NCBI GenBank assembly: GCA_039621445.1 | Contig: CP154954.1 | Coordinates: 31,024,012-31,088,011 of the forward strand | From: Euglena gracilis | Taxonomy: Eukaryota | Reading direction: 5' to 3' | DNA: 64,000 nucleotides | In this document: positions 4,267 to 64,000 of the stretch, in pieces | Numbering within the stretch: position 1 is the stretch's first letter | Layout: every line of letters starts with the position of its first letter | Translations under genes and position numbers: made by a program | Notes under the pieces: generated by a model | Databases searched by the model: none | Told to the model about the DNA's origin: nothing | Seen by the model: only the letters and a program-made list of their open reading frames with translations

Positions 4267-6924
4267 GATCATAAGCGGGTTTTGGTGGGTGGTGCACGGG
4301 ACCTCCTGGTAAAACGAATGTGCGAGTCAAAGCCCCATAGTATATCGTCAAATGAAGCAGGCCGATTTGTGGACATTTGGTGAATAGCCACAATCTCCCT
4401 CCCGCTTGTGGAGTTTTTGGCCATTACTTTAATTTTGATGTAGGGTGCCTTTCCCAACACACTGGTTGTACGCTTGATTCTACCAAGATCAGATGGTCGA
4501 TATAAACACAGGATTAGTGAACAAAAAATACACTGTCAAAGTAATGTACATATATCATTGGGGAAAGGGGAATTGGAGGGGTTTACAAAGTTCGCTCATA
4601 TCTCCAAATTTTGGATTCAAAGTGTTTTGTAAGCTGCTAACACGGCGTGGAATCTTAGTCCACTAAACCACAGGATTCGAAAGCATTGCATTATACGCAT
4701 TACGGGCTTGGGCCTTGGAAAATTGAAATCGTCAGCTAGTTGGTCGGTGGTAGCTTCAGGTGGGGAAGGCTCCCCATTTTCTAAAAACAGACCCAAAAGA
4801 ATAGTGAAGGCAATGTAATGCATTAGGCTGAGATTTCTCCCCAGGAAAGCGTCAATGGTTCTTTTTTACAAACCTGTTTCCCATCCAATATTTTCCTGGG
4901 CAAATCATGTTCGTAGGGGCCACCTGGGAGGTGAAAATTCCACCCCCCCTGCAGTTGGTCAATTTTTTCAAGCAGGCGGTTCCTGGCACTTTCATCTTTA
5001 TCATTTGGTGTCACCATGTGGCTGAATCCCAAAGGGTATGACCATCAGCCTTCTGGTCGGGGGAAACTTCTTCAATCGTGGGAGTATTTTCTTGATCGAC
5101 CAGAGCTGGTTTGCGTAAAGTCCGCCGATGTTATCCAGTGGGCACTGCAGGGCATATCACTGCTGTGGCCCCCCAGTGGGTCTATCTTGCAACCAAACAG
5201 GGTAGTTTTTTGATGTCTCTGGAGGCAAATAAATCTGGTTCTAAATTTATTAAACCTTTGAACTGCCACCTTAGCCATTGAAAGGGCTGTGATCCGCCGA
5301 GAAAGTCCCCTTGTCTGACTCCCACCAGCGTATGGTCGGTGATTCCTGTGAAGGAACCCATTTCACTAGTAGATTCAATTTCCATGCCCCATTTGAAAAA
5401 TGGAGTTATAAGGCTATTGAAAGGGTCATTTCTTCCACTCCCTTTTTTCAGGCAGCAATTAATACACCTGATTGTCCACTGAAAGGGAAAATGTTTCCAC
5501 TGGCCTGCTTATGTGCTGATGGCTGCACGCACTTAATTTACATTGATATGTAAAGTTGAGGTTTCTCTCCAAACTCCACCATCCCCTCTCCTCAGGCATG
5601 GTTCAGGTCCAGGTTGCATCTGGTGTTTGGATGTGTTGATAAGTTTTGGCTGACCCCAAGGGGGTGGAAATCTATCTTTTATTCTTTGAAAGGGGCTTTT
5701 TTCAGCCACAGTTATATATTTTTTCGAAGTCTCTGGTGCAGGGGGGTGTACACTCAATTTTCCTCCATTCAATTTGTATACCCGACCAATTGATTTTCTG
5801 GGAAATGGATTAAAGTTGTAGGACATTTCCTAGCCTTTCGTGCCACTGGGATTCGATCTTTCCCAAAGTTTACTTGATTGGGGGGGTGCACGCACTCAAC
5901 CTCTCTCTCACAGTATCACGGGTCATCCATGTTGTCCTTTTTGTTGTGTGACGACGTACCATGGGTTGGCCACTGTGGGTTCCCGTCGTGATTTCCGCTC
6001 CCATAGGAATAAAGATTTAATCTTGGGGGTTTACCCCCTTGTCCTCCTTTGCCCCGTCTTGGGCAGCCTCCTGTGGCTGCTGGGGTTTTTTGATATAACG
6101 TTGGCACCTTTGCTTATGGGGAACCATGGCCGCCATGGCCCTGCAATTTTATGGCCTCCATGGCCGTGTAAATAAAAATATTTCGAATTCTGGCCTCCAT
6201 AGCCATGATCTTTTCACCCTGGGGAGGAGCTTGACGTTGGTCTGCACCTCCACTTGAAATCTGTGGTGCTGGTATTGCCCCCCCCCTCCCCTTGGGAGGG
6301 TGTTGGAAGAATTGTTGGAATTTGACAGACCTTTTACTCCCCTCCTAGAAGGGAACTGTTTTTTGTAATTGGGCACCGTGTCCACCACCTTTGCCTTGAT
6401 TCCATCTGCCCCCCTTCTGTGAGAATTTTGACCTGGCGGCTTGGTGCCATTGTGGGACTTGCTTTTGGAATCCTGTGGTCTTCTTTGTCCCATTTTTTTT
6501 CAACGGACCCCGTTGTGCAGGTGTGCATGTAGTGTTCTGGGGGTTCCTCGTTCCTTTTGTTTTTCCTGGCAACTGTAGTCCACAGGCCGTGGGAGGGGTT
6601 TTGTGCTGAAAAATGAAGGTGGAATCTGGGGGGGGGGGGTGGAGACCACGGTTCGCCACATGTTGTCCGCACCTCCAGGTCCTCCAGCTGCCGCGGCGAC
6701 AGCTCCTCCAGGCATTTCACGTCGACTGCGTAATTGCTTTTTATCCACTTCATTGTTCACCGAAGTCGAACTCGAAATTAATATCTACTTTATTAAACTG
6801 AAATTCGTCTGGTTCGTTTCTTTCGGGATATTATTTTGATGTTGACTTCTTATGTTGGTTATTTTGCGTACCACTCTGCCACGCTGTCGTAAGGACATGG
6901 TACTGTGTACGTAGGTAAAAGCCT
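4267..6924 (-). mobile_element. D1: DIRS-like element, 5' part (gag, RT deleted, RNaseH, Dam-like MT, N-terminal part of the tyrosine recombinase)
   Basis: RNaseH LHINV (5533), MT PDLFAS (5182-5385), YR region colinear with 51803-52178. Gag MKWIKSNYAVDV (6334-6753) matches 49449-49805. Confidence 0.85.
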
Positions 6925-44483: not shown

Positions 44484-45620
44484 CCGTTTGACAATGCTGG
44501 ATTTACTATCTGAAGACGAGGCGAAGTACAACAGTGCCTGGGGCACTTTCGTTTTGAACACAGACCTGGTGGGAGCATTTCTACGAGACACCTCTGGAGA
44601 AGATGTTCAAGGAGTTTTGACGGCGGGCTTGCGTTGGCAAGGAGAAGGCTGGGCTGTGGGCGGCGAAGGAGCTGCGAGCTGTCAGCGGCACATCACTCGT
44701 CAGCGCCAGATGGGTGGAGTATCTCATGTCCTTCTTGTAAACACTCGCCTTGGTGCGTGGGATCGAAGTACTGCAGTTGGAGCTAAGCGAGAGGGCTTAA
44801 GAGTGTGCCATCAGGCTGGCCGAGACATGGACAACGCTACTGGAAGACGCCACCGCCGAGAAGAAGGGGAAGCAGAAGGTCGCGACAAGCGCCGCGATGG
44901 CGGAGGACGACGAGGAGGACGAGGAAGAAGCGGCGGAGACAACGGTGGAGCGGCTCCCCTGGCAAGATGACATGACCCCACTTTCCCAGGAGCTGTCAGC
45001 CTGCCTCAAGAAGGCGGCGGCAGGTACAAGATTACCATGGAAACACGTCCTGAAGGAGCTGCCGCTCTTCCAGGACCTAAAAACGCGAGCTTGGGACAAA
45101 AAACACCACCAGTACGCCAAGACCCCATGGACAAGATGCTCAAAGGGGTGCAAAAAAAGGTAATACATTTGGGGAGGATGATGGCCACAATCCACAGTGA
45201 AGTGGATGCATTCCCAGAGGACTATCGAGTCCTCTCCCAGCAACTCTTTTTCGCCATGGCGGAATTAGAACAAGGCCCTCTATGAGAACGGAAGCGTCGA
45301 AGTATACCTGGAGTGATACCTTCGACATCAAACAGTATCTTTTCAAAAGAATATCTGCAGGTGGAGAGGACTCAGCAGCAGCTGAACAGTGCTGGTACGA
45401 ACACACCTGTGGGTAGGGTGGAATCGTGGCATTTTCCCACCACCACAGGCAGCCGAGTCTGGAAATTCAAAGGATGATTCAAGGGGTTCAGAGGAGGATT
45501 CAAGGGTGGAAGCGGAGGCTATGGCAGCCAAGTCTGGAGAAGTCCCTGGACATCCAAAGGGTGTGGCACCCAGTCAAATCTCATTCCTCCCTCCTGGTCC
45601 ATTGCAGGACAACGGGCAGA
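44484..45620 (+). pseudogene. Gag-like fragment, possibly from another YR retroelement family
   Basis: Frames 44488-, 44897-45163 and 45037-45285 give a helical protein ending in FKG/RGG repeats; the family assignment is an impression only. Confidence 0.35.
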
Positions 45621-45624
45621 GTTA

Positions 45625-46800
45625 AGTGTTGGGGGATGGGGACCCTGCTCGCCCGGTGGGGCTGCCGCTTTCGCTGGGGCTGCAACTTCCCTTTTCCGGC
45701 CCTGGTGGGCTCAGGCCAGGGCCTTTGTGAAAGTGGGCCCCGTTTTCCAGTAAATCAACAGACTGTGAAGGGTGTGAGGTGTGCCCCCCCGACCCAAGGT
45801 CCCCAGTTTCCCCGCGTAGGATCTTTTTTTCTTTCCACTGTTGGTTTTTTCCCATTTCTCAACTTTGGTCCAAAGGGTGGACAAAAACAAAACCAACCCA
45901 CCTACTTAGGATCAAACAGCAGAGCACAACAAACCTGGGACTTGGGGGGGGGCTGTGTTTAGCCCTGTTTTTTTGTTGGTGTGGATCAAAATCAGTTTTT
46001 TTGGCTTTGTGGTTGGAATTTTTGACTCAGGATTGGATACCCTGTGAGACGTTTGGGTGGGGACAGGAATGCATCATTTTGTGACCGTGACTGTTTTTGG
46101 TCACACCCCAGAGTGTGACGGGGTTTGATGAAATTTCCATTTTTCCATTTCTTTCGTCAAGTGGGGATTCCGGTTTTGCAGACAGGAATTTTTAACCCGT
46201 GGCCCTTCCCCACACTAGTTCGGTGGGGGGGCGGGCGACATTGTGAAGGCCCGTCCGTTGACATGTGAGATTTGAGCCGGTTTGTATATTACGGCCCAGG
46301 TTTGTGATTTTTTTGTTTGGAGGCTGAAGCCAGATTGACCCCCATGGCCCCATGTGACTGGGGGGGGGGCAGCGAAAAATCGCCTTGGCTGAGAAAATTG
46401 CATTTGCATTTTCAGTATTCTTGAGTTTGCCATGTCATTTGACCCCCATTGCCCCGTGTGATTGGGGGGGGGGGGCAGTTAATTTTAATTGGCAACCTGA
46501 ATTGGTTGGTTTCGGCTGTGAATTGGTGGTGCCCAGGGTTGGGCTGAAATGGCCTGGCCCCTATACAACGGTATGCTGCTGGATGTTGCTTCTGTTGGGT
46601 TGGTTGCTCTCGGTTGGACTTTGTTTGTTGGATGTGGCAGGTTGGAATTGTCGATGTTGAGGGCTCTTGTAGGCCCTAGACTTGTGGGTTGGACCCAGAT
46701 TTTTGATTTTTTGAGGATTTTTTTGTTGCTGGAGGATTTTTATTCAAAGAGTTGGAAAAACCTGGGATTTGATAATTTTTCTGGTGGACAACAAAATGAG
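45625..46800 (-). mobile_element. Highly degenerate relative of the G4 3' region or LTR
   Basis: Shares GCGTAGGATCTTTT (~45815 vs ~61592) and GGCGAC.TTGTGAA (~46234 vs ~62267) in the same order. Confidence 0.35.
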
Positions 46801-49800
46801 TTGGCGTTTTAAAACTCTGTTTTTTGATTCGGTTTGGACTATTGGATATTGGCCAAAGGCATATTTTTCATGGAACACAGCTTGGAGGTATCCGAACTCG
46901 GGGGGGGGGTACCCTGGACCGGAGAGGCCCTGTTGTGGGACAATGAAAAAAAAAACAGCCACGTGGGCACTAAAGCCCTGTGACATAGTGGCTGAGGGCC
47001 AATGTGAAGCCCTGTTCTCTTGGCGTTCAAAAAAAAAATTCGATCAACCCAGTCATTTTCAGTTGGAATGCATGACAAGGAAGTGAGCGTGCACACACAC
47101 AAAACACACAACCGCACACGAACCCGCACACCCATCTGGGTGGCCCCTCCTTTTGCATGATTTCCTGAGGAAAATATTGTGGGGAGAACAAATAACCAAT
47201 AAAACCGTTTACTATTTCCTGGGGAGAAATCCGAGCCTGAGACAATATCAAAGTGCGTTTGCACTCCTTTCGGACATTTTGGACAATCAGGGGGTACCCC
47301 CCCCTCAAGCCACCACAGATAACGTGATTGACGCCTTAATACGTTTGTTTCAAAATTCCAAGGCCGAAGCTGGTAATGCACACAGTGCTATGCTTTTGAT
47401 CTCTGTGTTTGGTGGATTGAGATTCCATTGCGTTTTGTCCCCATACAAAATTCTTTGGAACCGAAACCTTGAAATATATGGGACGTTCTAGTATCCCCTC
47501 CCAATCCTCCAGGGGCTGGCCCAAACCCCTTTTACAGCTGATATATGTAATTTGCGTACACAACGTTTTTTTGTACTCACGAGTCCTCTGTTTATACAGA
47601 TCTTCAGACTTAGAGAGAGTAAGGTGAACCACAAGTGTGTTGGGCAAGGCTATCTTCAATCACAAAATAATTTTGGGCTAAACATGCGGTATCCCCCTGG
47701 CACAATCCACCAGAGGGGCAAAAGTTAGTTTACCCAAAGAAACTGCGTCATTCTGCCCGGAAACTGTCGTGAAATTGGCCAGTGGAGGGGGGTGGAGACT
47801 TTTACAGCCCGTTACCAATGACTTGCAGCCCAAAGCATTTTAGAAATTGTCCTGGACCCCCTAATTTCAGTGCACAATCAGGCCTGACAAGAGCAAAGTG
47901 CGGGGCCCGAGGTGTGCCGTACTCCCTCGAGTAAAATTGACAAAAGAGGAAGGGACACCGAGGGCGAAGCACAAACAGCCTGTGAACCCGCCCCCCCCCC
48001 AACACGTAAAAGAAAGTGTGTCTTCAAGATCAGCAGAAAATGGGGGCCATGGGGGGCAGAGTGGGTGTCCACCCCCAGGGGCAAGAAGCCACGTCGCCAC
48101 GTTGAAGCAGCATCGTCAGCCAACTCCGGGGAGGTAGCGCCAAGCAGGGACTTCTAACCCAGCGCACCAAAACAACCCAAAAAAAAAACCGCCGGCGAAC
48201 AGGCAATGGCCTCCCAACGACTTTGTGCTTCTCTCTCAGTGTCCCTTGCTCCCTTGTCATTTTTCCTCCAGGGATTAGGGGTTTTGCTCCTTAGTGCCCT
48301 TCTTCGCTGGAGTTGGCTGACTCTAATGGGTCTCTTCCTAGTAGACGGGCAAGAAAATACCAGGTCCACCCAGAACCAGAGGCAAATCAAGGACCCACCA
48401 GGCTAATCTCTTCCCCTACGTGAAGCGAGGATTTTGGGAAGGTTAGGCTTTTCCGCCTTTTCCTGAGTTGGATAATCCTAATTGCCCTATGGCGGAAGAA
48501 TTGCTGGCCAATCTCATCACAAGTGCTGATACACTGGAGCTGCAGAACACTTACGACGGTATTCTTCTATGGCGGGAGACCGCGTGTGCCATTTGAAGGC
48601 CATAAAGAAATTCGTTGCAAACTTCCTGGCGAAGGCGCCTGCGGTGTTTACAAACTGAACGATTTGACCTTCCAACCCTGCTTCAGCAGTATTAAGTAGA
48701 AAACCAGAGCACCTTTGACAAAAAGCAATGCCTTGGGCTGTTTTGGGTTTTATTCCCATATTTGGGACTCCCCACTCTTCCAGGAGGGCGGAGGAGAAGA
48801 TGATGAAATAACTGCGTTTGAGCTCCAAAACGGCGTTGGAGGTTGCTCGGTTGAAACGTGTGGGGGCCTCTACTTCCCACTGTCAGTTGGGGGCCCAAGA
48901 AAACTTGGAGCACACTTCGCTACAAAAAAATTTTTGTGGGTCCGACCCCCGGGGGGGGGGGGCCAGTTGTCTTCCTTTGGGAGGCAGTTCCGAGCCCGTG
49001 GTGTCTCACACTTCCCTGCGGCAGACCGAGAGGGGAGGAAGAGACACCAAGGGCGAAGCAGAAACACAAGTGAGCCCTCCCGTCCTTACAAAGAAAAATA
49101 AAAAAAATGTTCCGCTACCCTCATGGAATCGGCAACGCCGGGCGAGGAGCGAGCAAGCTCCGGCAAACATGCGGCACTAAGGGGGCAAAGACCAAACTTC
49201 CCAAAAGAACATTGCCTTCAAAAAACCTGAAAACAAGGCATTGGTGTTTGTGCTTCGCCATGGGCGTGTTCATCAGACTTGGTTTCGCGCTTATACCTAC
49301 AAACACAGTACCGTGGCCTTACGGCAGCCTGGTATACATAAGAACCCACATAAGAAGTCAACATTAAAGTAATATCCCGAAAGAAACGAACCAGACGAAT
49401 TTCAGTGGATAAAACAATTATCAATTTCAAGTTCGACTTCAGTGAACAATGAAGTGGATTAGAAGCAATTACGCAGTCGACGTGAACTGCCAGGAGTTGC
49501 TGTCGCCGCGGCAGCTGGAGGACCTGGAGGTGCGGACAACATGTGGCGAACCGTGGCCGCCACCTCCCCCGCCAGATTCCACCTTCATTTTTCAGCACAA
49601 AACCCCTCCCACGGCCTGTGGATTACAGTGGCCCGGAAGCCCAGAAGGAAGAAGGAACCCCCAGAACCACTACATGCACACCTGGACAACGGGGTCCGTT
49701 GAAACAAAATGGGACAAAGAAGACCACAGGGTTCCAAAGGCAAGTCCCACAATGGCACAAAGCCGCCAGGTCAAAATTCTCACAGAAGGGGGGCAGCTGG

Positions 49801-52800
49801 AGTAAAGGCAAAGGTGGTGGACACGGTGACGAATTCCAAAAACAGTTCCCTTCTCGAAAGGGAAGAAAAGGTTTGTCAAATTCCCACAATTTTTCCAACA
49901 CCCTCCCAAGGGGACGGCGGGCGGGGGGGCAATACCAGCCACCACAGATTTCAAGTGGAGGTGCAGACCAACGTCAAGCTCCTCCCCAGGGAGAAAAGAT
50001 CATGACTATGGAGGCCAGAAGTCGAAATATTTTTTTTACACGGCCATGGAGGCCATGAAATTGCAGGGCCATGGCGGCCATGGTTCCCCAGAAGCAAAGG
50101 TGCCAACCTTATATCAAAAATCTCCAGCAGCCACAGGAGGCTGCCCAACAGGGGGCAAAGGGGGACAAGGGGGTAAACCCCCCAGATTAAATCTTTATTC
50201 CTATGGGAGCGGAAACAACGAGGGGGACCCATGGTACGTCTTAACGCAACACAAAGGACAGCATGGACTTAGTCCACTAAACCCAGGAATCGAGAGCGTT
50301 GCACTACACGCATTACGGGCTTGGCCGTTAAAAAAAATGAAAACGTCAGCTAGTTAGTCTGTGTTAGCTTCAGGGGGGGCAGGGACCCCATTTCCTACAA
50401 AAAGACCCAGAAAAAATAGTGAAAGCAATATAATGCGTTAGGCTGAGATTATCCCCAGGAAAGCGTCAATGGTTTTTTTTACGAATTTGTTTCCCCTCCC
50501 ATAATTTCCTGGTCAAATCATGTTCGGAGGGGCCACCTGGGAGGTGGAAATTCCTCCCCCCCCCTCTGCAGTTGGTCAATTTCTTCAAGCAGGAGGTTTG
50601 GCACTTTCATCTTTATCATTTGGTGTCACCACGTGGCTGAATCCGAAAAGGGTATGACCATCAACACTTTGGTCTGGGGAAACTTCTTCAATCGTGGTAG
50701 TGTTTTCTTAATGATCGACCAAGGGTGGTTTGAATAAAGTCCCCCCATGTTATCCATAGCACTGCAGGGCATCCACCGCTGTGGCCTCCCAGTGGGTCCA
50801 TCTGGCAACCAAACAGGGTAGTTTTTTGATGTCTGTGGAGGCAAATAAATCTGGTTTTAAATTTATGAAATCTTTGAAGTGCCGCCATAGCCAATGAAAG
50901 AGCTGCCATCCGGTGAGGCCTTGTCTGACCTTGTCTGACTCCCACCAGCTTATGGGCTGTGCTAAGCATTCCTGTGAAGGAACCCGTTTCACTAGCGGAT
51001 TCAAATTTTTACTGTGCACCATTCGAAAAATTGTATTAGAATGACTTTGAAAGGGTATTTTCTGCCCCTTCTCTTTTTCAGTAGAAATAAATTACACCTG
51101 ATTGTCCATTGAAAGGAAAACTGTTTCCACTGGCCTTCTTGTGTACTGATGGCTGCATGCAATTCTTTTACATTGATATGTAAAATTGAGGTATCTCTCC
51201 AGAACTCCTGGACAATTTCTCCAGTTCGAATGTCCAACCGCCGTCCTCAGTCGTTGGTGCGGCTGTCAACGTGTAACTCGCTTGTTTAATTGTGGTGGTA
51301 AATGTGTGAATGTGATCAAATTTGAAGGTTATCACAGGAAAATTGTGGTTTATTTCCCTGCAGTCGCCTTTGAACCTCCACTTCGTTTGCTCCCATTCTG
51401 ATTTTGATATCAGGAATCAGCGAATTACATGTTTGGTTCGTGAATCCTGAATTATCTTTATGGAACCAGTTTTTTCGTAGTCCTATATTATTTTTTTCCG
51501 CCTGGTTCAGGTTCAGGTTGGCTTTGGTATTTGGATGCCTGTATAATTTTGGAGTTTTGACCCAACGGGGTGGATTTATACCTTTTATAAGTTGGCAGGT
51601 TGCTGGTGGGGCATTTCTCAGCAACAATTATAGGTTTTTTTGAAGTCTCTGTTGCAGGTGGGTGTACACCCAATTTTCCTCCATGGAATTTCTATCCCTG
51701 ATCATTTCATGTTCTGGGAAATAGATTAAAGTTGTAGGACATTTTACAGCCCTTTGTTCCGCTGGGATTTGTTCTTTCCCAAAGTTTACTTTATTGGGGG
51801 GGATTCCACGCCGTGTTAGCAGCTTACAAAACACTTTGAATCCAAAGTTTGGAGATACGTGGTGAACTTTGGAATCCTCTCCAAACCCTCTTGGGGCTTG
51901 CCCAAGCCCCTTTCCCCAATGGTATATGCACATTACTTTGACAGTTAATTTTTTGATCTGGATAGAATCAACCGTACAACCAGTGTGTTGGGAAAGGCAC
52001 CCTACATCAAAATTAAAGTAAGGGCCAAAAACTCTACAAGCGGGAGGGAGATTGTGTCTAGTAGCCAAATGTCCACAAATCGACCTGTTTCATTTGAAGA
52101 TGTCCTGTGGGGCTTTGACTCGCACATTCGTTTTACCGGGAGGTCCCGTGCTCCACCCACCAAAACCTGCTTATGATCCCATAAGTGCTGACACAATTGC
52201 TTCAAAAAAAATAGGCCAGAATTGGGTACCCCCCGGATTGGGGTGCCGATTCCACAAGAGGGGCAGGAGTTGGTTTACTCACAAGATTGCACCTTTCTGC
52301 CCAAGAAGTTTGTTAAATTGGCCTGTGGAGGGTGTTTTCAACGATTTGGTGCCCAAAGCGTTTTAGAAAGTGCCCTGGCAGCCCAAATTTTAGTGCACAA
52401 TCAGGCCTCAAAAGGGCAAAGTGCGGAACCAGAGGTGTCTCATACTCCCTCGAGGAAAAACGACAAGGGACACCGGGGGCGAAGCACAAAAGGCCCTGTG
52501 AGCCCAAGCTCCCCACCCCTAAATGAAAATTTGTCTTCAAAAGCCTCGCGATGCAGGATAAGGGAGCCATAAGGGAGTGGGGCGGACCCCCCCAGGGGCA
52601 AGAAGCCATGTCACCATGTCGGAGCAGAAGCGTCACCCAACTCCGGCGAGACGGCAGTGCAGTGTGATTGTTCGCTGGAACGGGTTAGGTGTACCCTTTT
52701 GGTGACTTTTCGCCGGGGGTTAGCTAAAACTTAAATAGCCCTTCGACAACCCAGAAGAAAGGAACCGTGTTTCAAACAATGGAGAACCAAAGAAGAAGTC

Positions 52801-54169
52801 AATTTTAAAGGAATATTCAGAAGTACACGGACCAGAAACATCTCAATTTACACGTCAATAATTACTTTCAATTTCGACTGCGTTGAACAATGAAGATCTA
52901 TAAGAAGCTGCAATTATGCAGTCGACGTGAACTACCTGGAGCAGCTGTCGCCGCGGCAGCCGGAGGACCTGGAGGTGCAGACGACATGTGACGGACCGTG
53001 GCCGCCCCTAACCCCAGATCCAAGTTTCAGAGATTCCCCACCAGAAAAACCCAGCCAGTGACGGCCAAGGCCTGTTGACCACAGTGGTCAGAAAGATCAG
53101 AAAGTCCAGAAGGAAGAATGAACCTCCAGCCAACCAGAAACGCCTGGGAATTTGTGCCCAATGAAGGAAGACTGGAGAAAAGCATACCACACGATTCTAA
53201 AGACATTTCCACAATGGCGCCAAAACGCCGGAACAGACATCGAACAGAAGAGGAGAAGATGGAATCATGGCCAAGGTGGAGGCCATGGTGGCCAATCCCA
53301 AACGAATTTCCCTTTTAGAAAGGGGACGAAAAGGTGCGCCAAAAAACTCAAAACCATCTAACACAACTACCACTCCCAAGGGGAGGGGAAGAGGCGGGGG
53401 CACAGCAGCCCCGCCAGATTTCATTCAAGTATATCCGAAGACCAACGTCGATACCAGCCCCAGGGAGGAGAGATCAAGGGCCAATGCGGTCAGAATCCAA
53501 AAAAATTTCTTTTGAACGGCCATGAATGTCAAAAAGCGCAAGGCCGTGGAGGCCATCATCTTCAGGACCAAATGGCTAGAACTCAGGGCCATGGGGGCCA
53601 AAGTGGTGGTTCAGAATTGGCGCCCCAGAAGCCAATGAGCCACCCCTATTATATGAGACAAATCTGGCAGTCGCAGAGAGATGCCCCAGAGAGGGCACTG
53701 GAGGACAAGGGGGTCAGCCACCCAGATCAATTATTTATTCCCAAGGAAGGAAAAATCAAGAGGGGCACACTGAAGGGCCCCTCTATAGTACGTTAGCGGA
53801 CAAGCCACATAAAAAGATGGAGGACCAGAGGGTCTGTGAGAGAGAAGGTGAATCCCATCCCATCGATTACATTCAAAAAAACCATCAAAACCCCAGGTAA
53901 AACGAGGGTTGTGGAATGTCCCAAAACCCGAAACCCATTTCCCAGAAAATATGTTGATCAGGGATCTCAATTACACGGAGGAAAAGGGGGGGGACACCCA
54001 TTGGACCAGAGACTGCAAAAGTCTAAAATGGTGTCTGAAAGTTGCCGCCGGAGCAACCTCCAACTCATAAATGATGGCATTCACCCCCTTTGGGTGAAAC
54101 CTCCAAAATTGTACAGACATCCGAAAACCAAAGGCAACCTGAACCTGAACCAGGCAGGAAAAAATAACA

Positions 54170-55350
54170 TTGGACTACGATAAAACCGGGTACGTAAAGA
54201 TAGTTCAGGCTTCAGTAACCAAACATGTAATTCCCTGGTTCCTGGTATTAAAACCAGAAGGGGAGCAAACGAAGTGGCTGTTCACAAGCAACTGTGGGGA
54301 AAAAAACCACAATTTTACTGTGAAAGCGTTCAAATTTGATCACGTTCAAAACATTTTTGAATGTTTTGAAGAACGGCCACTGGGAGGTAAAATACACTTA
54401 AAAGACGCATATTATCACATTCCAGGTAACCCGGTCCTAAAGCCCTTTCTAAGGCATCAAGTGGGCGGGCAAATGCGATGCCAAAATTTTTTACGTCACT
54501 CATGAAAATATTCAAAAAGCGTTGTATTACAAAAATGAATCCAGGTTTTTCTTTACCTGGACGACACTTTTGTGGTGGCCCCCTACCAAAAATGCATTGC
54601 CAAAACACTTGAACGGGGTTGTCAGAGACCTAATCGATTCGAGGTTCAAAATAAAAGTCAAAAAGTCAACCCTACAGCCCACACAAGTTGTAGAACATTT
54701 GGGCTTTCAGTTAAATTTGCAGGAGGGAAAATTTTACATTCCTCCCAAAAGGTGAAAACAATAAAAAAACCTGGGAAAATTGTGAAAAAAATATTTCGTT
54801 TCGAAAAGGCAGTGTGTAACCACTTTGGGCCCAATTAGATACAACCTCGTGCCCCTGCCCTTTCTAAGCGCTTTCACAGATTCCCTAACATTATTTATGG
54901 TCAAAAAGCCAGCAGCACCATGGGACTCGAAGCATTCCATTTTCCCAGGACATAAAAGCCCAATTCGGAAAGTAGTTTAAAATCTGTTGGACACCTGCGG
55001 GAGGAGGCCATTCACCAACAATGCAACAAGGTTGTTACCCTCAGACATCAGCACCCAAGCCTGGGGCAGGCTGTACATTCGTACTGGAGAAAGTGTCCAG
55101 AAGTTCTGGAGAGAAAGCTGCATTTTACATATCAATGTAAAAGAATTGCGTGCAGCCATCAGCACAGTGAAAAGTCTAAGCAGTCCGGTGAAGACGGTAT
55201 ACTTTTCAGTGGACAATCAGGGAAAATTTATTATTGACTGACATAATGTGGGGAGGCAGAAAAGACCCTGTCAGCAGCGTTCTGATTAATCTTATTTTGC
55301 AAATGCTGCATGGAACAAATTGAAGAAGTAAAATGAGTTCCTTCACAGGA
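54170..55350 (+). pseudogene. DIRS reverse transcriptase and RNaseH
   Basis: LKDAYYH, YLDD (54554-54565), SD.S..AWG, HINVKELRAA, SVDNQ. Confidence 0.92.
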
Positions 55351-55353
55351 ATA

Positions 55354-55996
55354 GGTGTATGAAAAAATGGGTTTCGAGGTGGTGACGGTGGATTCAGACC
55401 CCAGGTGGAAAGCAGATTACCAGGTGGACGTACTGGACTGGGACTTCAGAAAACACTTCAAACCTGGTGAATTCCACACGGTGGTGTGTGGAGTTCCCTG
55501 CACAGAATTCAGCATTGCCCTGACGACAAGACCCAGAAACCTAGAAAAGAGAGACAACCTTGCAAAGAAAGCCCTGGAAATTGTGGAATTTCTGCAGCCG
55601 CAGAAATGGTGGTTGGAAAACCCAAGGTACGGATACCTGGGAAAACGAGATTACACGAAACCGTACCCGTACATTGACGTGGATTACTGTCAATACACAG
55701 ACTGGGGTTACAAAACACCAACACGAATCTGGGGCAGCCCTGACATCCTACAGGTACCAGCAAAACGGTGTGACGGGAAAACCTGCAAGAACCTTGACCC
55801 GAACGGTGGTGGTCACCTGGTGAAACTCAGCAACAAACACAACATTCCAGCCTTCAAAAAATTAAGGATCCCAGAACAACTGATTCAGGACATGGCGGGG
55901 TTCCACGAACGGCTACGGCAAACCAGCCAAGCCCAGGACGCGCAGCAACAACCGCTGCAGCAGCCCAGCCCTGCCCAGACGGCACGACAATACATG
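55354..55996 (+). CDS. C5 cytosine DNA methyltransferase fragment lacking motif I, inserted with an 8-bp duplication
   Basis: VVTVDSD (II), VDVLDW (III), GVPC (IV, catalytic), WLENP (VI), YKTPTRIWG (VIII), RIPEQL (X). No internal stops. CAGGAATA at 55346-55353 and 55997-56004. Confidence 0.88.
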
Positions 55997-56451
55997 CAGG
56001 AATACTTAGCATCCCCATAAGCAGGTGGGACTCAGACAGGGGGGATTACTCACCGGACCCCCAGCTCTTTGGGTGGCTAAGGTGGCAGTTCAAAGGTTTC
56101 ATAAGTTTGGAAACAGATTTATTTGCCTCCCCAGGCAACAAAAAGTTGTCGAATTTTGTAGCCAGGTAACCCCACTGGGAGGCCACAGGAGTGGATGCCC
56201 TGCAATGTCCACTGGATAACGTGGGGTGGCTTTGTGCAAACCTCCCCTTGGTGACTCGTTCAGATGTTTCTCCCAAGATTGAAGAAGCCTTCCCAGATCA
56301 AATTTTGTATGGTCACCCCCTTTGGATTTCAGCCACGTTGTGTCCCCAATTAATAAAGATGAAAATACCAGGAACCACCTTCCTGAAAATCACTCCCTAC
56401 AAGGTCATTTTTTTTTACCAGTTGCAGGGGTGAACCAATGCCACCACCCAG

Positions 56452-57190
56452 GTGGCTCCTCTTTTGCATGATTTGCTCAGGACAATACGGGGGGAAAAAC
56501 AAATAACCAATAAAACTTTTGACTATTTCCTGGGGAGAAATCCGAGCTTGAGACTTTATCAAAGCGCGTTTGCACTCCTTTCGGTCATTTTGGAAAATCT
56601 GGGGGTATCCCCCCTCAAGCCACCACAGATAAGGTGGTTGACGCCTTAATACATTTATTTCATTTTTTCGAGGCCCAAGCTTGTAATGCATACGGTACTT
56701 TTGATATCTGTGTTTGGTGGATTGAGATTACATTCCATTTTGTCCCCATACAGAACACTTTGGAACCAAAACCTTGAAAAATATGGGGCAATCTACTTTC
56801 CCTTCCCAATCCTCCTGGGGCTGACCCAAGCCCCTTTTACAGCTGACATATGTACATTGCGTACACAACGCATTTTTGTCCTCACGAGTCCTCTGTTTAT
56901 ACAGATCTTCATACTTAGAGAGAGTAAAATGAACCACATGTGTGGGGCAAGGCTCTCTTCAAACACAAAGGAATTTTGGGCTAAACACGGGGTCTCCCCC
57001 GGGGACACTCCACCAGAGGGGCAAAAGTTGTTTTCCCTAAAAAAAAATGGCCATTCTGCCCTGAAAGTGTCATGAAATTGGCCAGTGGAGGGGGGTGGAG
57101 GATTTTACAGCCCGTTACCAATGAGTTGGATCCCAAAGCGTTTTAGAAAATTCCATGGATCCCCTAATTTCAGCACACAATCAGGCCTCA
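56452..57190 (+). pseudogene. DIRS tyrosine recombinase with an internal deletion
   Basis: LCLYRSS, HSTRGA (57005), LGQWRG..F..RY; same deletion as in 47153-47880. Confidence 0.85.
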
Positions 57191-60100
57191 CAAGGGCAAA
57201 GTGCGGAACCCGAGGTGCGCCGTACTCCCTCGAGTAAAAATGACAAAAGAAGAAGGGACACCGAGGGCAAAACACAAAGACCTTGTGAGTCCGCCCCCCC
57301 CAACCCGTATAAGAAAGTTTGTCTTCACGAGCAGCAGAAAATGGGGCCATGGTGGGCAGAGGAGGGGTCCACCCTCAGGGGCAAGAATCCACTTCGCCAC
57401 GTTGAAGCAGCATCGCCGGACAACTCCGGCGAGGCAGCGCTAAGCAGGGACACCTAACCCAGGGCACAAAAAAATCCAAAAAACACCGCCGTCGAACAGG
57501 GCTTGGCCTCACAAGGTCTTTGTGCCTCGCCCTCAGTGTCCTTTACTCCCTTGTCCTTTTTCCTCCAGGGATTAGGGGTCCACCAAAAAACAGCAGTAAA
57601 TCAAGGAACACCAGGCTCCTCACTTCCCCTACGTGACGTCAGGCTTTGTTTGCCGGCATATTGAAGTTGAACGTTTTTTGGGAAGGTTAAGCTTTTCCCC
57701 CTTTCCCTGAGTTGGATGCTCCTAATTGCCCTATGGCGGAAGAACTGCTGGTAAAATTCATCACAAGTGTTGATACACCGGAGCTGCAGAACATTTCCGA
57801 CGCTATTTTTCTATCGCGGGATCGCGGGAGACCGCGTGTACCCTTTTGAGGCCCCAAAGAAATTCGTTGCAAACTTCGTGGCGAAGGCGCCTGCGGCGTT
57901 TACAAACTGAACGATTTGACCTTACAACCTAGCTTCAGCGGTATTAAGGCAGAATGCAGAGCACCTTTGACATAAAACAAAGCCTTGGGCTTTTTTGGGG
58001 TTGATTCCAATATTTCGGATTCCGCACTCTTCGACGAGGGTGGGGACGAAGATGATGAAACAACTGTGTTTGAGCTTTAAAACGCTTTTGGGGTTGCTCG
58101 GTCGAAAGTGTGGGGGCCTTTTCTTCCCACAATCAGTTGGATGCCCAAGAAAACTTGGAGCACGCTTCTCCGCAAATATCATTTGTGGGTCCGACCTCCC
58201 CCGGGGGGGGGGGGGGGGTGCGCAGTTGTCTTCCTTTTGGGGGCAGTTCTGAGCCCGAGGTATCTCGCACTTTCCTGCGGCAGGCTGAGTGGTGAGGAAG
58301 AGACACCAAGGGCGTAGCAGAAACACAAGTGAGCCCTCCCATCCCTGCAAGGAAAAAAAATACTCGGCCACGTCCTGGAATAGGCCCAGCCAGGGCGAGG
58401 AGCGTGCAAACACCGACAAATAGCGGCATAAAGGGGCGAAGTCCAGCCTTCCCAAAAACAATCCCTCCAAAGAACCTGAAAACAGAGTATTACCACACTT
58501 GGTGTTTGTACCTCGCCCTCTGCATGTTCATCAGACTTTCATTTAGTGCGCCGCCGCGAAGTTTTCCACGCGGCACAAAAAACGCGGCGCGCAGACGAAT
58601 TTTTTGCCGCGGCACAGGCGCGGCGCACCTTGAGATCTCGGGCTCCGCACTTTGCCATTGTGAGGCCATGCCTTGCTTGCCGGCGGTGTTTTTTTGGTTG
58701 TGTTGTTGCGCTGGGTTAGAAATCCCTGCTTAGTGCCGTTTTTTTGCCAGAGTTGGCTGATTTTTAAAGTGCCCTTCGACACCCAGAAGAAAGGAACTAC
58801 ATCTCAAACGAGGAACAACCAACAGGAGAAGTCAACATAAAAAGAGTATATAGAAGGAATCAAACCTGACAAATTTCAGTTGATAATTCAATCATAAATT
58901 TCAAAGTTCGACTTCAGTGAACAACGAAGTGGATAAGAAGCTTGTATTATGCGGTCGACGTGAACTGCCTGGGGCAGCTGTCGCCGCGGCAGTTGCAGGA
59001 CCTGGAGGTGCGGACAACGTGTCGCAAACCGTGGCCTCCCAACCCCCACTGATGCCACCTTCAGAAATTTCCCAGCATGAAACCCCAGCCCTTGACGGCA
59101 ACGGCCTGTGGACCACAGTGGCTAGTAAGACCAGAAGGTAGAAGGAACCCCCATTATACTATGGGCAGAAACACCTGGGAAACGGGGTCCGATGAAACAA
59201 AATGGGACAGAAGAAGACTGCAGGTTTCCAAAGGCAAGTCCCACAATGGCGCCAAGCCGCCAAAACACAAATTTCACAGAAGTCGGGAAGATGGAATAAA
59301 GGCCAAAGTCGTGGAAATGGTGGCCAATTGCAAAAGCAATTCCCTTCAGGCAGGGGAGGAAAGGTCTGTCAAATTCCCAAACATTTTCCAACACAACAAC
59401 CCATCCCAAGGGGAAGAGGGGGGGAAAAACCACCCCAGATTTCAAGTCGAGCTGGAGACCAACGCCAAGCTCAGCCGCAGGGAGAGGATATCATGGCCAA
59501 GGAGGCCATAATTGGAATCATGTTCATTTACACGGCCATAGAGGCCAAGAAGTGCAGGGCCATTATCTGGGCCATTATCTTCAGGGCCAAAAAGGCCACA
59601 ATTTTCGCGGACGTGGCGGCCAAAAGGTTCGTCCAGAAATGGTCCCCAGAAGGCTGCCCAAGAGGGGGCAACGGAGAAGAGCGGTTAACCCCCAGATCAT
59701 TCATTTCTTCCCATGCGAGGAGATATCAAGGGGCGGAGTCACGGTTGCCGGCCTATTGTACGTCGTCAGACAACACAAAGGACAAGACGGAGTACCCGAG
59801 ATCCTGTAAGAGAGATATTGAGTGCGTGCACACCGGTCCGTCACATGTTTTCTGCACCTCCAGGTCCTCCGGCTGCCGCGGCGACAGCTGATGCAGGTTG
59901 ATCACGTTGACCACAAACATTGAAGTCGAATATGAAAATTGATCATTGAGTTGCCAATTGAAATTTGTCTGGGAATTCTACTTCTTAATACCCTTTTGAT
60001 TCTGTCTTCTCCTTTGGTTCAACTTCGTTTGAAACTCAGTTCGTTTCTTCTGGGTCGTCGAAGGGGTATTTACGAATCAGCCAACTCCGGCGAAAAAAAG

Positions 60101-61536: not shown

Positions 61537-64000
61537 TGTAACCGTGGTACCTGCCCTGGAGTTTCCAGTCCCTCGGGGCCGGCACCCCTTTGCGTAGGAT
61601 CTTTTACCCTGCCCAGGGTATTTTCAATTCCCCTCGCGGCTTGTTTCAAAAATTGCATTTTCTTTGTTTTTATGGGTCTTTTTGGGTGAAAACAGGTGGT
61701 TTGGTTGGCTCACACCTTTCCTTTGATAAAACATCCACAAGCAATCAGCAAATCCACCAGCACAATACAAGCAAACCACAAAGGATGAAAGTACCAAAGT
61801 CCAAACCAAGGGTAAGAGAATGATAGGTTCCATATAGTTGACCAGATAATTCTTGGACCCCAAATTGACAGTGTGACAGAGAGACAGACAGAGGACAGAG
61901 CCCTGCACAGGGACAGATGGAGTCAGTGATTGAAAACAGTAACTGAAGAGTCATCAGGTTGGGTTGGGTTAGGTTGTGTTTTTTTGGGCACTCAGCAACC
62001 CTGACTCACACCCCCCTTCCCGAAGGAGTTGTTTACAACTCTTCACAACTCCAACAGGAAGGGGTGCGGAGTGCACTCGTTGTGAGGAGGGGGCGAGCGA
62101 GGGGACAGTTGTTCAGGCCCCCCCCCTCAGGGGGCTGTGCCGTTCAGGTTCGTTTTCTGACCGTGGGGCTGAGTCAAATGTTCTCCTTTGGCAGTTGGGT
62201 CGGTTTGGTGTGTTGTCCCCCCTCCCAGCCCGCCTAGGGCTGTGTGGCGTTGGGGGGGAGGGGGCAGGCGACGTTGTGAACCAAGCGCCAGCCACGGGTA
62301 AAAATTTCAGGAAATTCTAATTCCCAGGCCAGGTGAGTTGTTTTGTCACGGTCAGGGTCCTAGACAGCCGTTTTTGGTTCGGTTAGCCAATACGGTGTTT
62401 GGGGTTGGTGTCCGTTCGGTGGGGGGTAGGTCCCGTTGGGGTCTTCAACCCCCCCCCCCCCCAGGCCAGGCGGTCAGGCTCCGGCCGGGGACGAATTTTT
62501 ATAAGAATCAGGTGAATGCTGGGTTTCAGTTAAAAATAAGGCTGGGTCAAGGACAATGTTTTTTTTGTATTTTTGTTGTTTTTCTGGGGGGTAGACTGGT
62601 TTGTGTGAGGTCAGGTGTTGCGGAGGGTCCTCGCCCCCCCCCCCCCCCAGGCCGGTGGCCCGGGGTCGGCCAGGTCTGCGTTTTTTGCGTTTTTGGGTCA
62701 AAGTCAGGTTCCCCTTCCCCCGTTTGCCCAGTTTTGGCTGGCTGCTACGGTTGGGGTTGGGGGCTGTGTTTTGTTTTTTTTTTACAGGTAGGCTGGCCAA
62801 GTCCAGGGGGGAAGGTTGGTTCTCCTCGGGGGGTCCCAACCCACAACAACAACGCTGAAGAATTGAAGAATGGATTGATTGGCTGTTGAGGGGTACTTGA
62901 GGTCAGTGAATTCGGGTCGGGTCGGGTCTTGTTCAGGTCCGTTGGGCTGGATCAAGTTAAGCTGGCCAGCGGTTCAGGTTCAGGTGGGCTGGCCAGGGGT
63001 GCTGCCCGGGCCCGTTTTGTCGTTTTGGTTAAGCAGGTTTTGTATCAGGTATAATTGTTCAAATCGATTGAGGTTAATGTGAGCAGTAGGGTTGGGGTTG
63101 GCTTCGGGGTCGTTCGGGGTGTCGACGTTACGGTGTCTGTGAGGGGCCCACGGGTATGTGACATGCGTCACTCCATCCCATCAAGCAACACCCTCACATC
63201 CACAGCCAGGACCCGTTTTTTGCAGTATTGGACCACATCTTTGTTTGTTCGGAGGAAGAAGTCGTTCAGGGGTTCCCACTGAATATCAGATGGGTCCCAG
63301 TTTTTCCACTGAATCAAAAATTGAAGTTTTCCGACTTTTCTGCGGTGGTTCAGCACTTTTCAACATCCCACTCGTCCGGTCCGACCTCCAACTCCTGTTC
63401 CTTGCCCCACCAAAAGTAGAGGGGGACAGGGGTTGTGTTGTAGAGGTCCTCCTTGTGGGGTTTGAGTTGTGAACGGTGGGCAGGTTGTCGGTTTCCAGGT
63501 CGTAGTTCAACCACGTAGGAGTGTTGTCCTACCCGTTCCAACACCACCGCAGGTCCTTTCCACTTCGGTTCGAGTTTGTCGCTGCCGGGTTGTCTTTCGG
63601 GTTGATACCAGACTTTGGGACCGATTTCCAAGGCAGGTGGTTCTCTGCGTTTTTGGTTCACCGTTTAACCCCTTTCACGCTGTTTTTCGTTCAGGACCAG
63701 ACTGACCCACTGGTCTTGTTCCTTCATCTTTTCCAAGAACGCTGTGGCCCCTTCCGCTTCCTTTTGTGGTTGGTATGGCAATCCCGCCAACGGTCTGTGC
63801 CTGCCAAACACAATTTCGTACGGTGACAATCCCGTTTCACCTGGGACGCAACCTTTTCTGCTGTGAGTCCCTTGGCCAGGTGGGGGGTTGCAACCATCCA
63901 CCCACTCAGCCTGTCCACACACAACGACAACGTGTCGTATTTCTTCCCTTCAAAGGTCGTTTCAGGTGGTGAGAACAAATCGATAGCAACACTGTCCATC
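61537..64000 (-). mobile_element. G4: 3' end of a different chromovirus family (integrase, chromodomain, 3' region, putative 3' LTR 61537-62010) inserted in a DIRS MT domain
   Basis: VAIDLF, CVDRLSG, GLSPYEIVFG, KLEPKWKGP, EWDVEK..HR..FLIQWKNW..WEP. Minus-strand PPT GGGAAGGGGGG (62011-62021), then TGTGAG...GTTACA. Confidence 0.88.

What the first reader, a model, noticed from the sequence alone, without database searches (positions are those of the whole stretch)
55346..56004. Intact cytosine-5 methyltransferase segment inserted in register between DIRS RNaseH and the adenine MT
Seen: empty sibling copies read GTTCCTTCACAGGAAT-GCTTAGCAC (minus strand, ~50960-50985). Here 643 bp plus a duplicated CAGGAATA (651 bp = 217 codons) are inserted, keeping the frame VPSQE..QEYLA, with a TAG formed at the left junction. 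The insert has PC, ENP, TRIW and IPxxL motifs and no stops, whereas the host copy is heavily decayed. Motif I (FxGxG) is cut off, so this copy is probably inactive. Known: C5-MTases have been captured by retrotransposons in dinoflagellates and charophyte algae. Inference: a snapshot of how such captures occur, and a sign that an intact DNMT donor (probably another retroelement) exists in this genome. Three methyltransferase lineages would then coexist in its mobilome.
Basis: partly seen in the sequence, partly recalled or inferred. Interest (0 to 1): 0.8.

Follow-up and report, generated by a model that had tools for sequence, protein, structure and literature searches.

The report
Methyltransferase gene fragment in dead retroelement
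A 645-base piece of a cytosine-methyltransferase gene, copied from a very abundant jumping gene, was pasted into one long-dead copy of a different jumping gene; it looks like a one-off repair accident, not a working gene fusion.

Summary
Window 55353-55997 is an extra segment inside one DIRS-like relic. It is flanked by a duplicated CAGGAAT(A) and has an open 221-codon frame (55355-56020). It carries the PC, ENP, TRIW and IPxxL motifs but lacks motif I. Profile and fold searches show a C5 DNA methyltransferase.

The capture reading is only partly right. Three public DNA runs cover the segment at 1e5-4e5 summed depth, against about 40-120 for the flanks. It differs from that abundant family at 5 of 645 sites. 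Where homology stops upstream, the abundant copies run on into a motif-I coding stretch, so a full-length, very abundant donor exists. Relatives of the donor methyltransferase sit in Ty3/gypsy-type polyproteins next to Dam-like, protease, RT, integrase and chromo domains. That resembles the published "EpiLTRs".

The host copy is badly decayed: at least 20 stops per frame, and 86% identity to its nearest sibling. The insert splits the conserved RNase H end motif WVPS..C.AD.[IL]SR, which is unbroken in 20 of 23 intact relatives. None of the 23 carries the C5 motif, and the junction flank shows no amplification.

Most likely a young donor fragment was pasted into a dead copy during break repair. 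It is ordinary and non-functional.

The parts
55346..55352 (+). Left copy of the duplicated target CAGGAAT. The A at 55353 fits either target or donor.
   Evidence: this sequence aligns to the single CAGGAAT of the two empty siblings.
55353..55997 (+). Donor-derived insert: an internal, 5'-truncated fragment of a C5 DNA methyltransferase gene plus about 30 codons of downstream linker.
   Evidence: homology to the abundant family starts at 55353 and ends at 55997 (loose ends on both sides). Summed depth is 9e4-3.8e5. Five fixed differences; this is the only match to the family in the window.
55355..56020 (+). Open frame of 221 codons across the insert, preceded by the junction TAG (55352-55354) and ended by TAA in the host sequence.
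   Evidence: Pfam PF00145 E 4e-4, 20.4 bits, below the 22-bit cut-off. phrog_757 'DNA methyltransferase' E 8.9e-9, starting at profile position 31 of 247. AF2 model pLDDT 88.9. All listed Foldseek PDB hits are C5-MTases.
55496..55501 (+). Motif IV Pro-Cys (GVPCTEFS), the catalytic cysteine.
   Evidence: Read. It aligns to PPCTEFS of the family and to PPCQGFS of DNMT1.
55616..55624 (+). Motif VI ENP (equivalent to ENV).
55721..55732 (+). TRIW, the family's conserved KPTRIWG block.
   Evidence: Its equivalence to motif VIII of C5-MTases is my reading, not tested.
55997..56003 (+). Right copy of the duplicated target CAGGAAT. The C at 55997 fits either donor or target.
54158..55220 (+). Host DIRS-like relic: reverse transcriptase and most of RNase H, spread over several frames with stops.
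   Evidence: tblastn of P0159 (1142 aa; RVT_1 E 1.3e-22) residues 163-528, in two frames, with 2 and 7 stops.
55996..56880 (+). Host DIRS-like relic continued: end of RNase H (LASPISRW), the Dam-like MT domain (DLFAS...) and the start of the recombinase-like part.
   Evidence: P0159 residues 570-868, 46% identity, 3 stops; 23 relatives at E<=0.001. Three of 4 relatives scanned show PF05869 Dam at E 3e-6 to 9e-4, below the cut-off.
50968..50983 (-). Empty site in a sibling DIRS-like relic.
5342..5357 (-). Empty site in a second sibling DIRS-like relic.

Best explanation
A recent 645-bp internal piece of the C5-methyltransferase coding region of a very abundant, young retroelement family was pasted into one old, already dead DIRS-like copy. 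The donor is most likely an LTR element of the DAM+DNMT type. The piece starts just after motif I and ends about 30 codons past the domain.

The join duplicated 7-8 bp of target (CAGGAAT[A]) and shows only 0-1 nt of shared sequence at each junction. The most likely route is repair of a staggered double-strand break. The overhangs were filled in, and a stray linear DNA or cDNA fragment of the donor was ligated between them by end joining.

Sense orientation and the reading register are coincidence. The result is a non-functional fragment: it has no AdoMet-binding motif I, a TAG lies at the left junction, a 1-bp deletion follows the right junction, and the host frames are dead.

Shown: the insertion, the duplication, C5-MTase identity, the truncation, donor abundance and near-identity, host decay, and the empty ancestral state.
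Inferred: the repair mechanism, the cDNA nature of the fragment, and the LTR architecture of the donor in this particular genome.
For: Insertion and duplication.

C5-MTase identity:
- 8 of 16 family members hit PF00145 at E<=0.01.
- The family profile hits DNMT1 chains at E 4.4e-5 over motifs IV-VI.
- The AF2 model has pLDDT 88.9.
- 26 Foldseek PDB matches reach E<=0.001, and the listed rows are all DNMT3, DNMT1, ZMET2, M.HaeIII or M.HhaI.
- phrog_757 matches at E 8.9e-9.

Truncation: full-length relatives carry (R)MLDLF.GTGS directly before the point where the insert starts.

Donor:
- In runs X1, X2 and X7 the bins 55340-56005 have summed depth 9.0e4-3.8e5. Listed flank contigs have depth 40-119.
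- Contigs leave the window sequence exactly at 55353. The upstream consensus translates to ..LFCGTKSVS, a motif I stretch.
- They leave again at 55997.
- Only 5 places (55414, 55456, 55656, 55892, 55938) differ in all or nearly all abundant contigs.

Host age:
- 86.3% identity to the nearest sibling.
- 23 of 25 gaps are not multiples of 3.
- 20-25 stops per frame in the host, against 0 in the insert frame.

Ancestral state: 20 of 23 relatives of the host MT region have an unbroken WVPS..C.AD.[IL]SR, and 0 of 23 have a PPCT/VPCT motif.

No amplification of the chimera: the left flank bins 55192-55339 have depth 0-25.

Retroelement context of relatives:
- P0077: DNMT, RT, RNase H, integrase, chromo.
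- P0016: Dam-like, DNMT, DTGA protease.
- P0065: Dam, protease, DNMT.
- P0012: Dam plus DNMT.
- P0003 and P0009: DNMT plus protease.
Against: - No read or contig from an independent run was shown to bridge either junction. The bins left of the insert are nearly empty, so the join rests on the assembly alone.
- Sense orientation with register kept on both sides has about a 1-in-18 chance. This mildly favours a process acting on coding RNA.
- A 7-8 bp duplication is not specific to break repair.
- The donor's architecture in this genome was not seen. No genome is held, and the closest database relatives are only 55-80% identical.
- Depth sums over contigs are not copy numbers, as the tool itself warns.
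Confidence: 0.72

Rival explanations
1. A retro-insertion of a truncated donor RNA. Target-primed reverse transcription, by a LINE-type or other endonuclease/RT, copied part of the donor transcript at a staggered nick and left a 7-8 bp target-site duplication.
For: Short variable target duplications and 5' truncation are typical of target-primed insertion (established knowledge, not tested here). The duplication and the internal-fragment nature are shown.
Against: There is no poly(A), no LINE 3' tail and no donor 3' end at either junction. Both ends of the fragment are internal to the donor ORF. No LINE was identified in the window, though I ran no LINE-specific search.
Confidence: 0.1
2. The chimera was born during reverse transcription. 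The DIRS reverse transcriptase switched template to a co-packaged donor RNA and back, re-priming 7 nt upstream. The chimeric cDNA then integrated as this copy. This would be a true, if failed, domain-capture intermediate.
For: The insert is in sense orientation, and the register is kept on both sides. The 2026 preprint infers repeated exchange of methyltransferase modules between DIRS and LTR elements and possible chimeras in Euglena (sections 7 and 8 read).
Against: The ages do not match. The insert has 5 of 645 differences from the abundant family, no indels listed in the insert (table 4) and no stops. The host has 20-25 stops per frame and is 14% from its nearest sibling. A chimera as old as the host should have decayed alike. 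The insert also breaks the conserved RNase H end motif. There is no second copy with the junction.
Confidence: 0.07
3. An assembly or chimeric-read artefact joined a donor fragment into the DIRS relic.
For: No independent contig was seen across the left junction. The bins 55192-55339 have depth 0-25 in X1, X2 and X7. The donor is a very high-copy repeat, which invites misjoins.
Against: An exact 7-8 bp duplication of the target, with the host sequence resuming precisely, is a biological signature and not expected from a misjoin. The insert has 5 private differences from the abundant family, as expected for a real, separate copy. The tool states that a hole proves nothing.
Confidence: 0.06
4. 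The DIRS lineage originally carried the methyltransferase, and the 'empty' copies lost it by deletion between the CAGGAAT repeats.
For: Short direct repeats can mediate deletions (general knowledge). The empty siblings are only about 72% identical to the host.
Against: Twenty of 23 intact or partial relatives from other sources have the unbroken motif at this point, and 0 of 23 have the C5 motif. The insert lacks the start of its own domain and matches an unrelated abundant family at about 99%.
Confidence: 0.02

Closest known systems
EpiLTRs and DAM-LTRs (Fernandez-Moreno et al., bioRxiv 10.64898/2026.05.21.726589; abstract and sections 6-8 read, further passages by term search)
   Same: Relatives of the insert's methyltransferase sit in Ty3/gypsy-type polyproteins together with a Dam-like domain, protease, RT, integrase and chromodomain. 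This is the combination the preprint describes for a subset of Euglena gracilis LTR elements. The preprint also notes nested insertions and chimeric TEs in that species.
   Different: The window holds only a 5'-truncated fragment inside a DIRS-like relic. I could not see the donor's architecture in this genome. I could not compare it with the preprint's sequences, because supplements are closed and no EpiLTR sequence was available. The preprint places its DNMT as sister to DNMT4. Here the nearest sequence relatives are small stand-alone viral methyltransferases.
SymbioDIRS-Dnmt3 of Symbiodinium (de Mendoza et al. 2018, PMC5890265; passages read)
   Same: A C5-MTase domain lies inside the Pol ORF of a DIRS-type element.
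   Different: There the DNMT3-type domain is complete and conserved across many active copies, and it methylates CG. Here the domain belongs to another family, lacks motif I, and sits in one dead copy, where it interrupts RNase H.
KnitGypsy-Dnmt3 of Klebsormidium nitens (same paper, passages read)
   Same: An LTR/gypsy Pol carrying a C5-MTase. This is probably what the donor family works like.
   Different: It is DNMT3-derived, and it has no Dam-like domain.
Capture of retrotransposon cDNA at chromosomal double-strand breaks (yeast Ty1 work of the 1990s; recalled, not looked up)
   Same: Internal or partial retroelement fragments are ligated into a break with little or no homology.
   Different: The mechanism was not tested here. 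The 7-8 bp duplication needs a staggered break.
Small stand-alone C5 methyltransferases of DNA viruses (phrog_757, phrog_363; IMG/VR contigs)
   Same: P0119 (208 aa) is 40% identical to the insert over 121 residues (E 2e-32). It lies on a 58.6-kb viral contig beside a ribonucleotide reductase and homing endonucleases. The window ORF hits phrog_757 at E 8.9e-9.
   Different: Those are free-standing viral genes. The insert's nearest relatives with known context are fused into retroelement polyproteins.

Membership tests
C5 cytosine DNA methyltransferase (PF00145 fold and motifs) | Motif I (FxGxG, AdoMet binding) | tested here: not met
   It is absent from the window copy. The ORF starts at the residue after it, and the phrog_757 match begins at profile position 31. 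It is present in 9 of 16 aligned relatives and in the upstream consensus of the abundant donor contigs.
C5 cytosine DNA methyltransferase (PF00145 fold and motifs) | Motif IV Pro-Cys and motif VI ENV-like | tested here: met
   GVPCTEFS and WWLENPR align to PPCQGFS and LLENV of DNMT1 in the profile search.
C5 cytosine DNA methyltransferase (PF00145 fold and motifs) | Pfam gathering score | tested here: not met
   The window ORF scores 20.4 bits against a cut-off of 22 (E 4e-4). Eight of 16 family members match at E<=0.01, best 5.7e-7.
C5 cytosine DNA methyltransferase (PF00145 fold and motifs) | Fold | tested here: met
   The AF2 model has mean pLDDT 88.9 and pTM 0.78. Foldseek PDB gives 26 matches at E<=0.001; the listed rows are DNMT3A/B/C, DNMT1, ZMET2, M.HaeIII and M.HhaI, with TM 0.34-0.48.
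C5 cytosine DNA methyltransferase (PF00145 fold and motifs) | Methyl transfer to cytosine C5 | not testable with these tools
   This needs an enzyme assay of a full-length donor copy.
DIRS-type retroelement (host copy) | RT, RNase H and Dam-like MT in one Pol | tested here: met
   The host maps to P0159 residues 163-528 and 570-868. P0159 has RVT_1 at E 1.3e-22. Three of 4 relatives scanned have sub-threshold Dam hits. Host fragments alone gave no Pfam hit.
DIRS-type retroelement (host copy) | Tyrosine recombinase instead of a DDE integrase | tested here: inconclusive
   No Pfam hit was found in read-through frames of 56401-58600 or 47101-49300, nor in P0159 at E<=0.01. The tail of P0159 shows an HSTRG...HY pattern by eye, and the host matches P0159 residues 978-1091.
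DIRS-type retroelement (host copy) | Inverted or split terminal repeats | tested here: inconclusive
   An inverted match between 52001-52998 and 60808-59834 at 72% could be termini or neighbouring copies. I did not resolve it.
DNMT-bearing retroelement lineage (as in SymbioDIRS-Dnmt3) | Several copies sharing the same domain junctions | tested here: not met
   The host is the only one of the 3 window copies covering the site that is filled. None of 23 protein relatives carries the insert. The junction flank depth is 0-25. The whole genome could not be searched.
DNMT-bearing retroelement lineage (as in SymbioDIRS-Dnmt3) | Open frame through a complete domain | tested here: not met
   TAG lies at 55352-55354, motif I is missing, and the frame shifts after 56012.
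EpiLTR (LTR element with DAM, DNMT and chromodomain), for the donor | DAM, DNMT and chromo in one LTR element of this genome | not testable with these tools
   This was seen only in relatives from other sources. Of the donor in this genome, only about 30 nt upstream and 13 nt downstream of the insert were seen.

The most novel reading that the evidence does not exclude
The donor is a retroelement family present in thousands of near-identical copies. Its C5-methyltransferase belongs to a small, virus-type clade. That clade is 40% identical to free-standing methyltransferases of DNA viruses and matches DNMT1 of the PDB only weakly, over motifs IV-VI. It would then be a separate, virus-derived acquisition of a DNMT by LTR retrotransposons, found in several domain orders (DAM-DNMT-PR, DAM-PR-DNMT-RT, DNMT...integrase-chromo). 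On this reading, the fragment in the DIRS relic is a by-product of the DNA traffic that moves methyltransferase modules between DIRS and LTR elements.
Probability: 0.25. Interest if true: 0.55.

Novelty: new member of a known kind. Interest (0 to 1): 0.27.

Why it matters
The insert itself matters little. It is a dead fragment in a dead element, and it should not be counted as a DIRS-DNMT fusion or as evidence of selection for such a fusion.

It is useful as a pointer. It shows that this genome holds a very abundant, young repeat family encoding a full-length small C5-methyltransferase. That family's relatives elsewhere are fused to Dam-like, protease, RT, integrase and chromo domains. Retroelements that carry both an adenine and a cytosine methyltransferase were first described in a May 2026 preprint.

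Two leads could help work on how such elements acquire and shuffle epigenetic modules. One is the link to small viral methyltransferases. The other is the variety of domain orders seen in metagenomic relatives. It also warns annotators that nested fragments can mimic domain fusions in TE-rich genomes.

Tried and rejected
- Whole-genome search for donor and junction copies: no genome is held.
- Pfam on host ORF fragments and on stop-as-X read-throughs gave no hits. Host identity had to come from a homology search instead.
- A 'longer' homolog search with the host RT fragment 54149-54505 found nothing among 32 candidates.
- Single-sequence PDB search with the ORF gave only a chance hit at E 0.92. 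The profile search worked.
With the single ORF it returned 2 distant loci at 29-33% identity, L001 and L002. I did not examine them.
- Genome contigs with P0119 gave one archaeal MAG locus at 29% identity, L003. I did not examine it.
- Earlier-findings look-ups gave nothing for this genome or this sequence. A word search returned one diatom finding in another genome, which I did not use.
- RNA: run X21 laid only 2 reads, both inside the insert. One carries the donor-type letter at 55656. This gives no evidence that this copy is expressed.
- My 3-sequence Dam HMM included the first residues of the DNMT. Its 'DAM' tags on family members may therefore be partly spurious, and I did not rely on them.
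- A 5-bp inverted match near the insert ends (TGTAT...ATACA) was dismissed. The donor homology extends beyond it on both sides.
- No tree against DNMT1/3/4/5 reference families was built, because no reference sequences were available to me.
Full report
WHAT IS THERE

Host sequence runs ...GTTCCTTCACAGGAAT up to 55352. An extra segment follows. Host sequence resumes with CAGGAATACTTAGC at 55997. The two CAGGAAT copies are 651 bp apart. TAG at 55352-55354 is created at the left join.

The 16-mer before the join occurs three times in the window, against 0.05 expected from shuffles. In the other two copies (50968-50983 and 5342-5357, both minus strand) the sequence runs straight on without the 645 bp.

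The frame 55355-56020 is open for 221 codons. The other two plus frames of the insert have 6 stops each. Every plus frame of the host between 53200 and 55352 has 20-25 stops.

IS IT A C5 METHYLTRANSFERASE?

- The ORF alone is below Pfam's cut-off for PF00145: 20.4 bits against 22, E 4e-4.
- A database search found 15 relatives at E<=0.001 among 64 candidates, 31-80% identical.
- Eight of the 16 aligned sequences hit PF00145 at E<=0.01.
- A profile of the alignment hits DNMT1 chains of the PDB at E 4.4e-5 over motifs IV-VI. A weaker stretch aligns over motif I.
- An AlphaFold model built from the alignment is confident: pLDDT 88.9, pTM 0.78.
- Its Foldseek matches in the PDB (26 at E<=0.001) are, in every listed row, C5 DNA methyltransferases: DNMT3A/B/C, DNMT1, ZMET2, M.HaeIII and M.HhaI.
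- The ORF also hits the phage family phrog_757 'DNA methyltransferase' at E 8.9e-9, starting at profile position 31 of 247.
- PC, ENP, TRIW and RIPEQL are all present.
- Full-length relatives carry (R)MLDLF.GTGS immediately before the point where the insert begins.

So the fragment lacks the first strand and the AdoMet-binding loop of its domain.

THE DONOR

No genome is held for this window. I therefore laid contigs from three public DNA runs of the coded 'organism A', and raw reads from one RNA run, on 54600-56800.

- The nine bins covering the insert have summed depth 9.0e4-2.5e5 in X1, 1.0e5-1.9e5 in X2 and 2.1e5-3.8e5 in X7.
- The listed flank contigs match with 0-6 differences over 88-254 bases. 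Their depths are 40-62 in X1, 41-65 in X2 and 82-119 in X7.
- The tool warns that these sums are not copy numbers. Even so, a thousand-fold excess means a very abundant repeat.
- In all three runs, abundant contigs leave the window sequence exactly at 55353. Their upstream consensus translates to ..LFCGTKSVS, a motif I stretch like that of relative P0013.
- In X1 they leave again at 55997.
- Only five places in the insert differ in all or nearly all abundant contigs (55414, 55456, 55656, 55892, 55938).

The insert is thus about 99.2% identical to a full-length, very high-copy family. The RNA run laid 2 reads, both inside the insert. One carries the donor-type letter at 55656, so nothing shows that this copy is expressed.

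WHAT KIND OF ELEMENT IS THE DONOR?

This could only be judged from relatives in other sources. A profile search of 1.84 billion representatives gave 757 proteins at E<=1e-30.

Nine long ones were scanned against Pfam:
- 6 of 9 show PF00145.
- 4 of 9 show RVT_1.
- 2 of 9 show Dam.
- 2 of 9 show integrase core.
- 2 of 9 show Chromo.

Individual architectures:
- P0077 (2513 aa) reads DNMT, RT, RNase H, integrase, chromo.
- P0016 reads Dam-like, DNMT, DTGA protease.
- P0065 reads Dam, protease, DNMT, then the start of RT.
- P0012 and P0013 have a Dam-like part just before the DNMT.
- P0003 and P0009 have a protease after it.

This is the combination a May 2026 preprint names EpiLTRs, in Euglena gracilis and Cymbomonas tetramitiformis (sections 6-8 read). 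That preprint also mentions nested insertions and chimeric TEs in Euglena.

The same family also has free-standing members of about 200 aa. P0119 lies on IMG/VR viral contigs of 33-182 kb, beside a ribonucleotide reductase and homing endonucleases. It is 40% identical to the insert over 121 residues, E 2e-32. Phage records match at E 2e-10. The nearest Atlas clusters are small viral C5 methylases.

THE HOST

Pfam saw nothing in the host fragments. A read-through of 55990-56421 (stops as X) found 23 relatives at E<=0.001 among 124 candidates.

- The best relative is 65% identical. Its source names it EG_transcript_6737.
- P0159 (1142 aa) has RVT_1 at E 1.3e-22. Then come RNase H-like, DLFAS...NPPW (Dam-like) and recombinase-like parts.
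- The host maps to P0159 residues 163-528 (54158-55220) and 570-868 (55996-56880), in several frames and with stops.

'DIRS-like relic' is therefore supported. The tyrosine recombinase and the terminal repeats were not firmly shown.

The insert lies between E and C of the motif WVPS..C.AD.[IL]SR.

- The motif is unbroken in 20 of 23 relatives, always 44 residues before DLFAS.
- The other 3 relatives (P0178-P0180) lack the pattern by my regular expression and were not examined further.
- None of the 23 has a PPCT or VPCT motif.

The empty state is therefore ancestral. The insertion cuts a conserved motif at the end of the RNase H region; it does not fall between domains. That this motif holds an RNase H catalytic residue is my recollection and was not tested.

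TIMING

The host is 86.3% identical to its nearest sibling, and 23 of 25 gaps between them break the frame. The insert has no stops, no indels listed against the abundant family (table 4) and 5 substitutions. A chimera formed while the host was alive should have decayed with it. The piece therefore arrived late, in a dead copy, and its intact frame reflects youth, not selection.

The chimera is not amplified. The unique left flank (55192-55339) has depth 0-25 in the three runs. The high-depth patches at 55118-55191 and 56006-56153 are conserved DIRS stretches. Their contigs diverge into homologous but different sequence with an empty site: the loose ends at 55183, 56013 and 56144, and an X7 contig joining 55352 to 56013.

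MECHANISM (INFERRED)

- Both ends of the fragment are internal to the donor ORF.
- There is no poly(A) and no LTR end.
- Only 0-1 nt is shared at each junction.
- Seven to eight bp of target is duplicated.

The simplest account is a staggered double-strand break whose overhangs were filled in. A stray donor DNA or cDNA fragment was then ligated between them by end joining. Cases in yeast are recalled, not looked up. Target-primed retro-insertion and RT template switching are less likely alternatives. An assembly artefact cannot be fully excluded, because no independent contig was shown across the junctions. The exact target duplication and the five private differences argue against it.

VERDICT

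The 'capture in progress' reading is not supported. This is a single, recent, non-functional fragment of a DNMT-bearing retroelement nested in a dead DIRS-like copy.

The interesting object is the donor family, which resembles the EpiLTRs published in 2026. I could not test whether its DNMT is the same acquisition. Supplements are closed, and no reference sequences were available to me.

Literature searches were 18 papers; 4 papers. I make no claim that anything is absent from print.

Noticed in passing
window 23653-28235 (+), 14386-16397 (+), 36313-36732 (+): Ty3/gypsy-type RT and integrase relics lie at 25562-28235 and 14972-16397 (tblastn to P0077). Just upstream of them are stretches reading like the LTR-type Dam domain (D.F...R.P..W...S..F). 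These were hit by my own 3-sequence HMM at E 1e-4 to 0.18, but by no Pfam model. They are possible DAM-LTR relics without a DNMT.
   Followed up: partly
window 63186-63999 (-): An integrase/chromo relic is 42-57% identical to the tail of P0077, the DNMT-bearing chromovirus-like polyprotein. Its 5' part, where a Dam or DNMT module would be, lies beyond the window end. It sits in several frames, so it is decayed.
   Followed up: no
window 39502-47138: A 7.6-kb stretch with no other match in the window replaces, in the 86% sibling copy, exactly the part homologous to host 55090-56450. That part includes the insertion site. ORFs there gave no Pfam hit.
   Followed up: partly
window 32119-33546 (+): A 475-codon open frame has a Pfam NPV_P10 match (E 3.9e-8, residues 50-108). 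It is probably a coiled-coil or low-complexity resemblance. Its neighbours 31264-32097 and 33709-34827 are open but gave no hits.
   Followed up: no
window 1082-4096 (-): The best-preserved Ty3/gypsy copy in the window. It has RVT_1 and RNase H (2876-3772) and integrase (1847-2875) in two long frames separated by one stop. No methyltransferase match lies upstream of it.
   Followed up: no
proteins P0016, P0065, P0039, P0051, P0031, P0097 (other sources): The same DNMT family appears in several domain orders: Dam-DNMT-protease, Dam-protease-DNMT-RT, protease-DNMT-(Dam?), and DNMT...integrase-chromo. The tags come from regular expressions and a crude HMM only. P0065 is filed in NCBI as a partial hypothetical protein of the plant Genlisea aurea.
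   Followed up: partly
window 54600-56800, runs X1, X2, X7: Short conserved stretches of the DIRS-like host (55118-55183 and 56013-56144) reach summed depths of 3e4-5e5. The DIRS-like family itself must also be present at very high copy in organism A.
   Followed up: no
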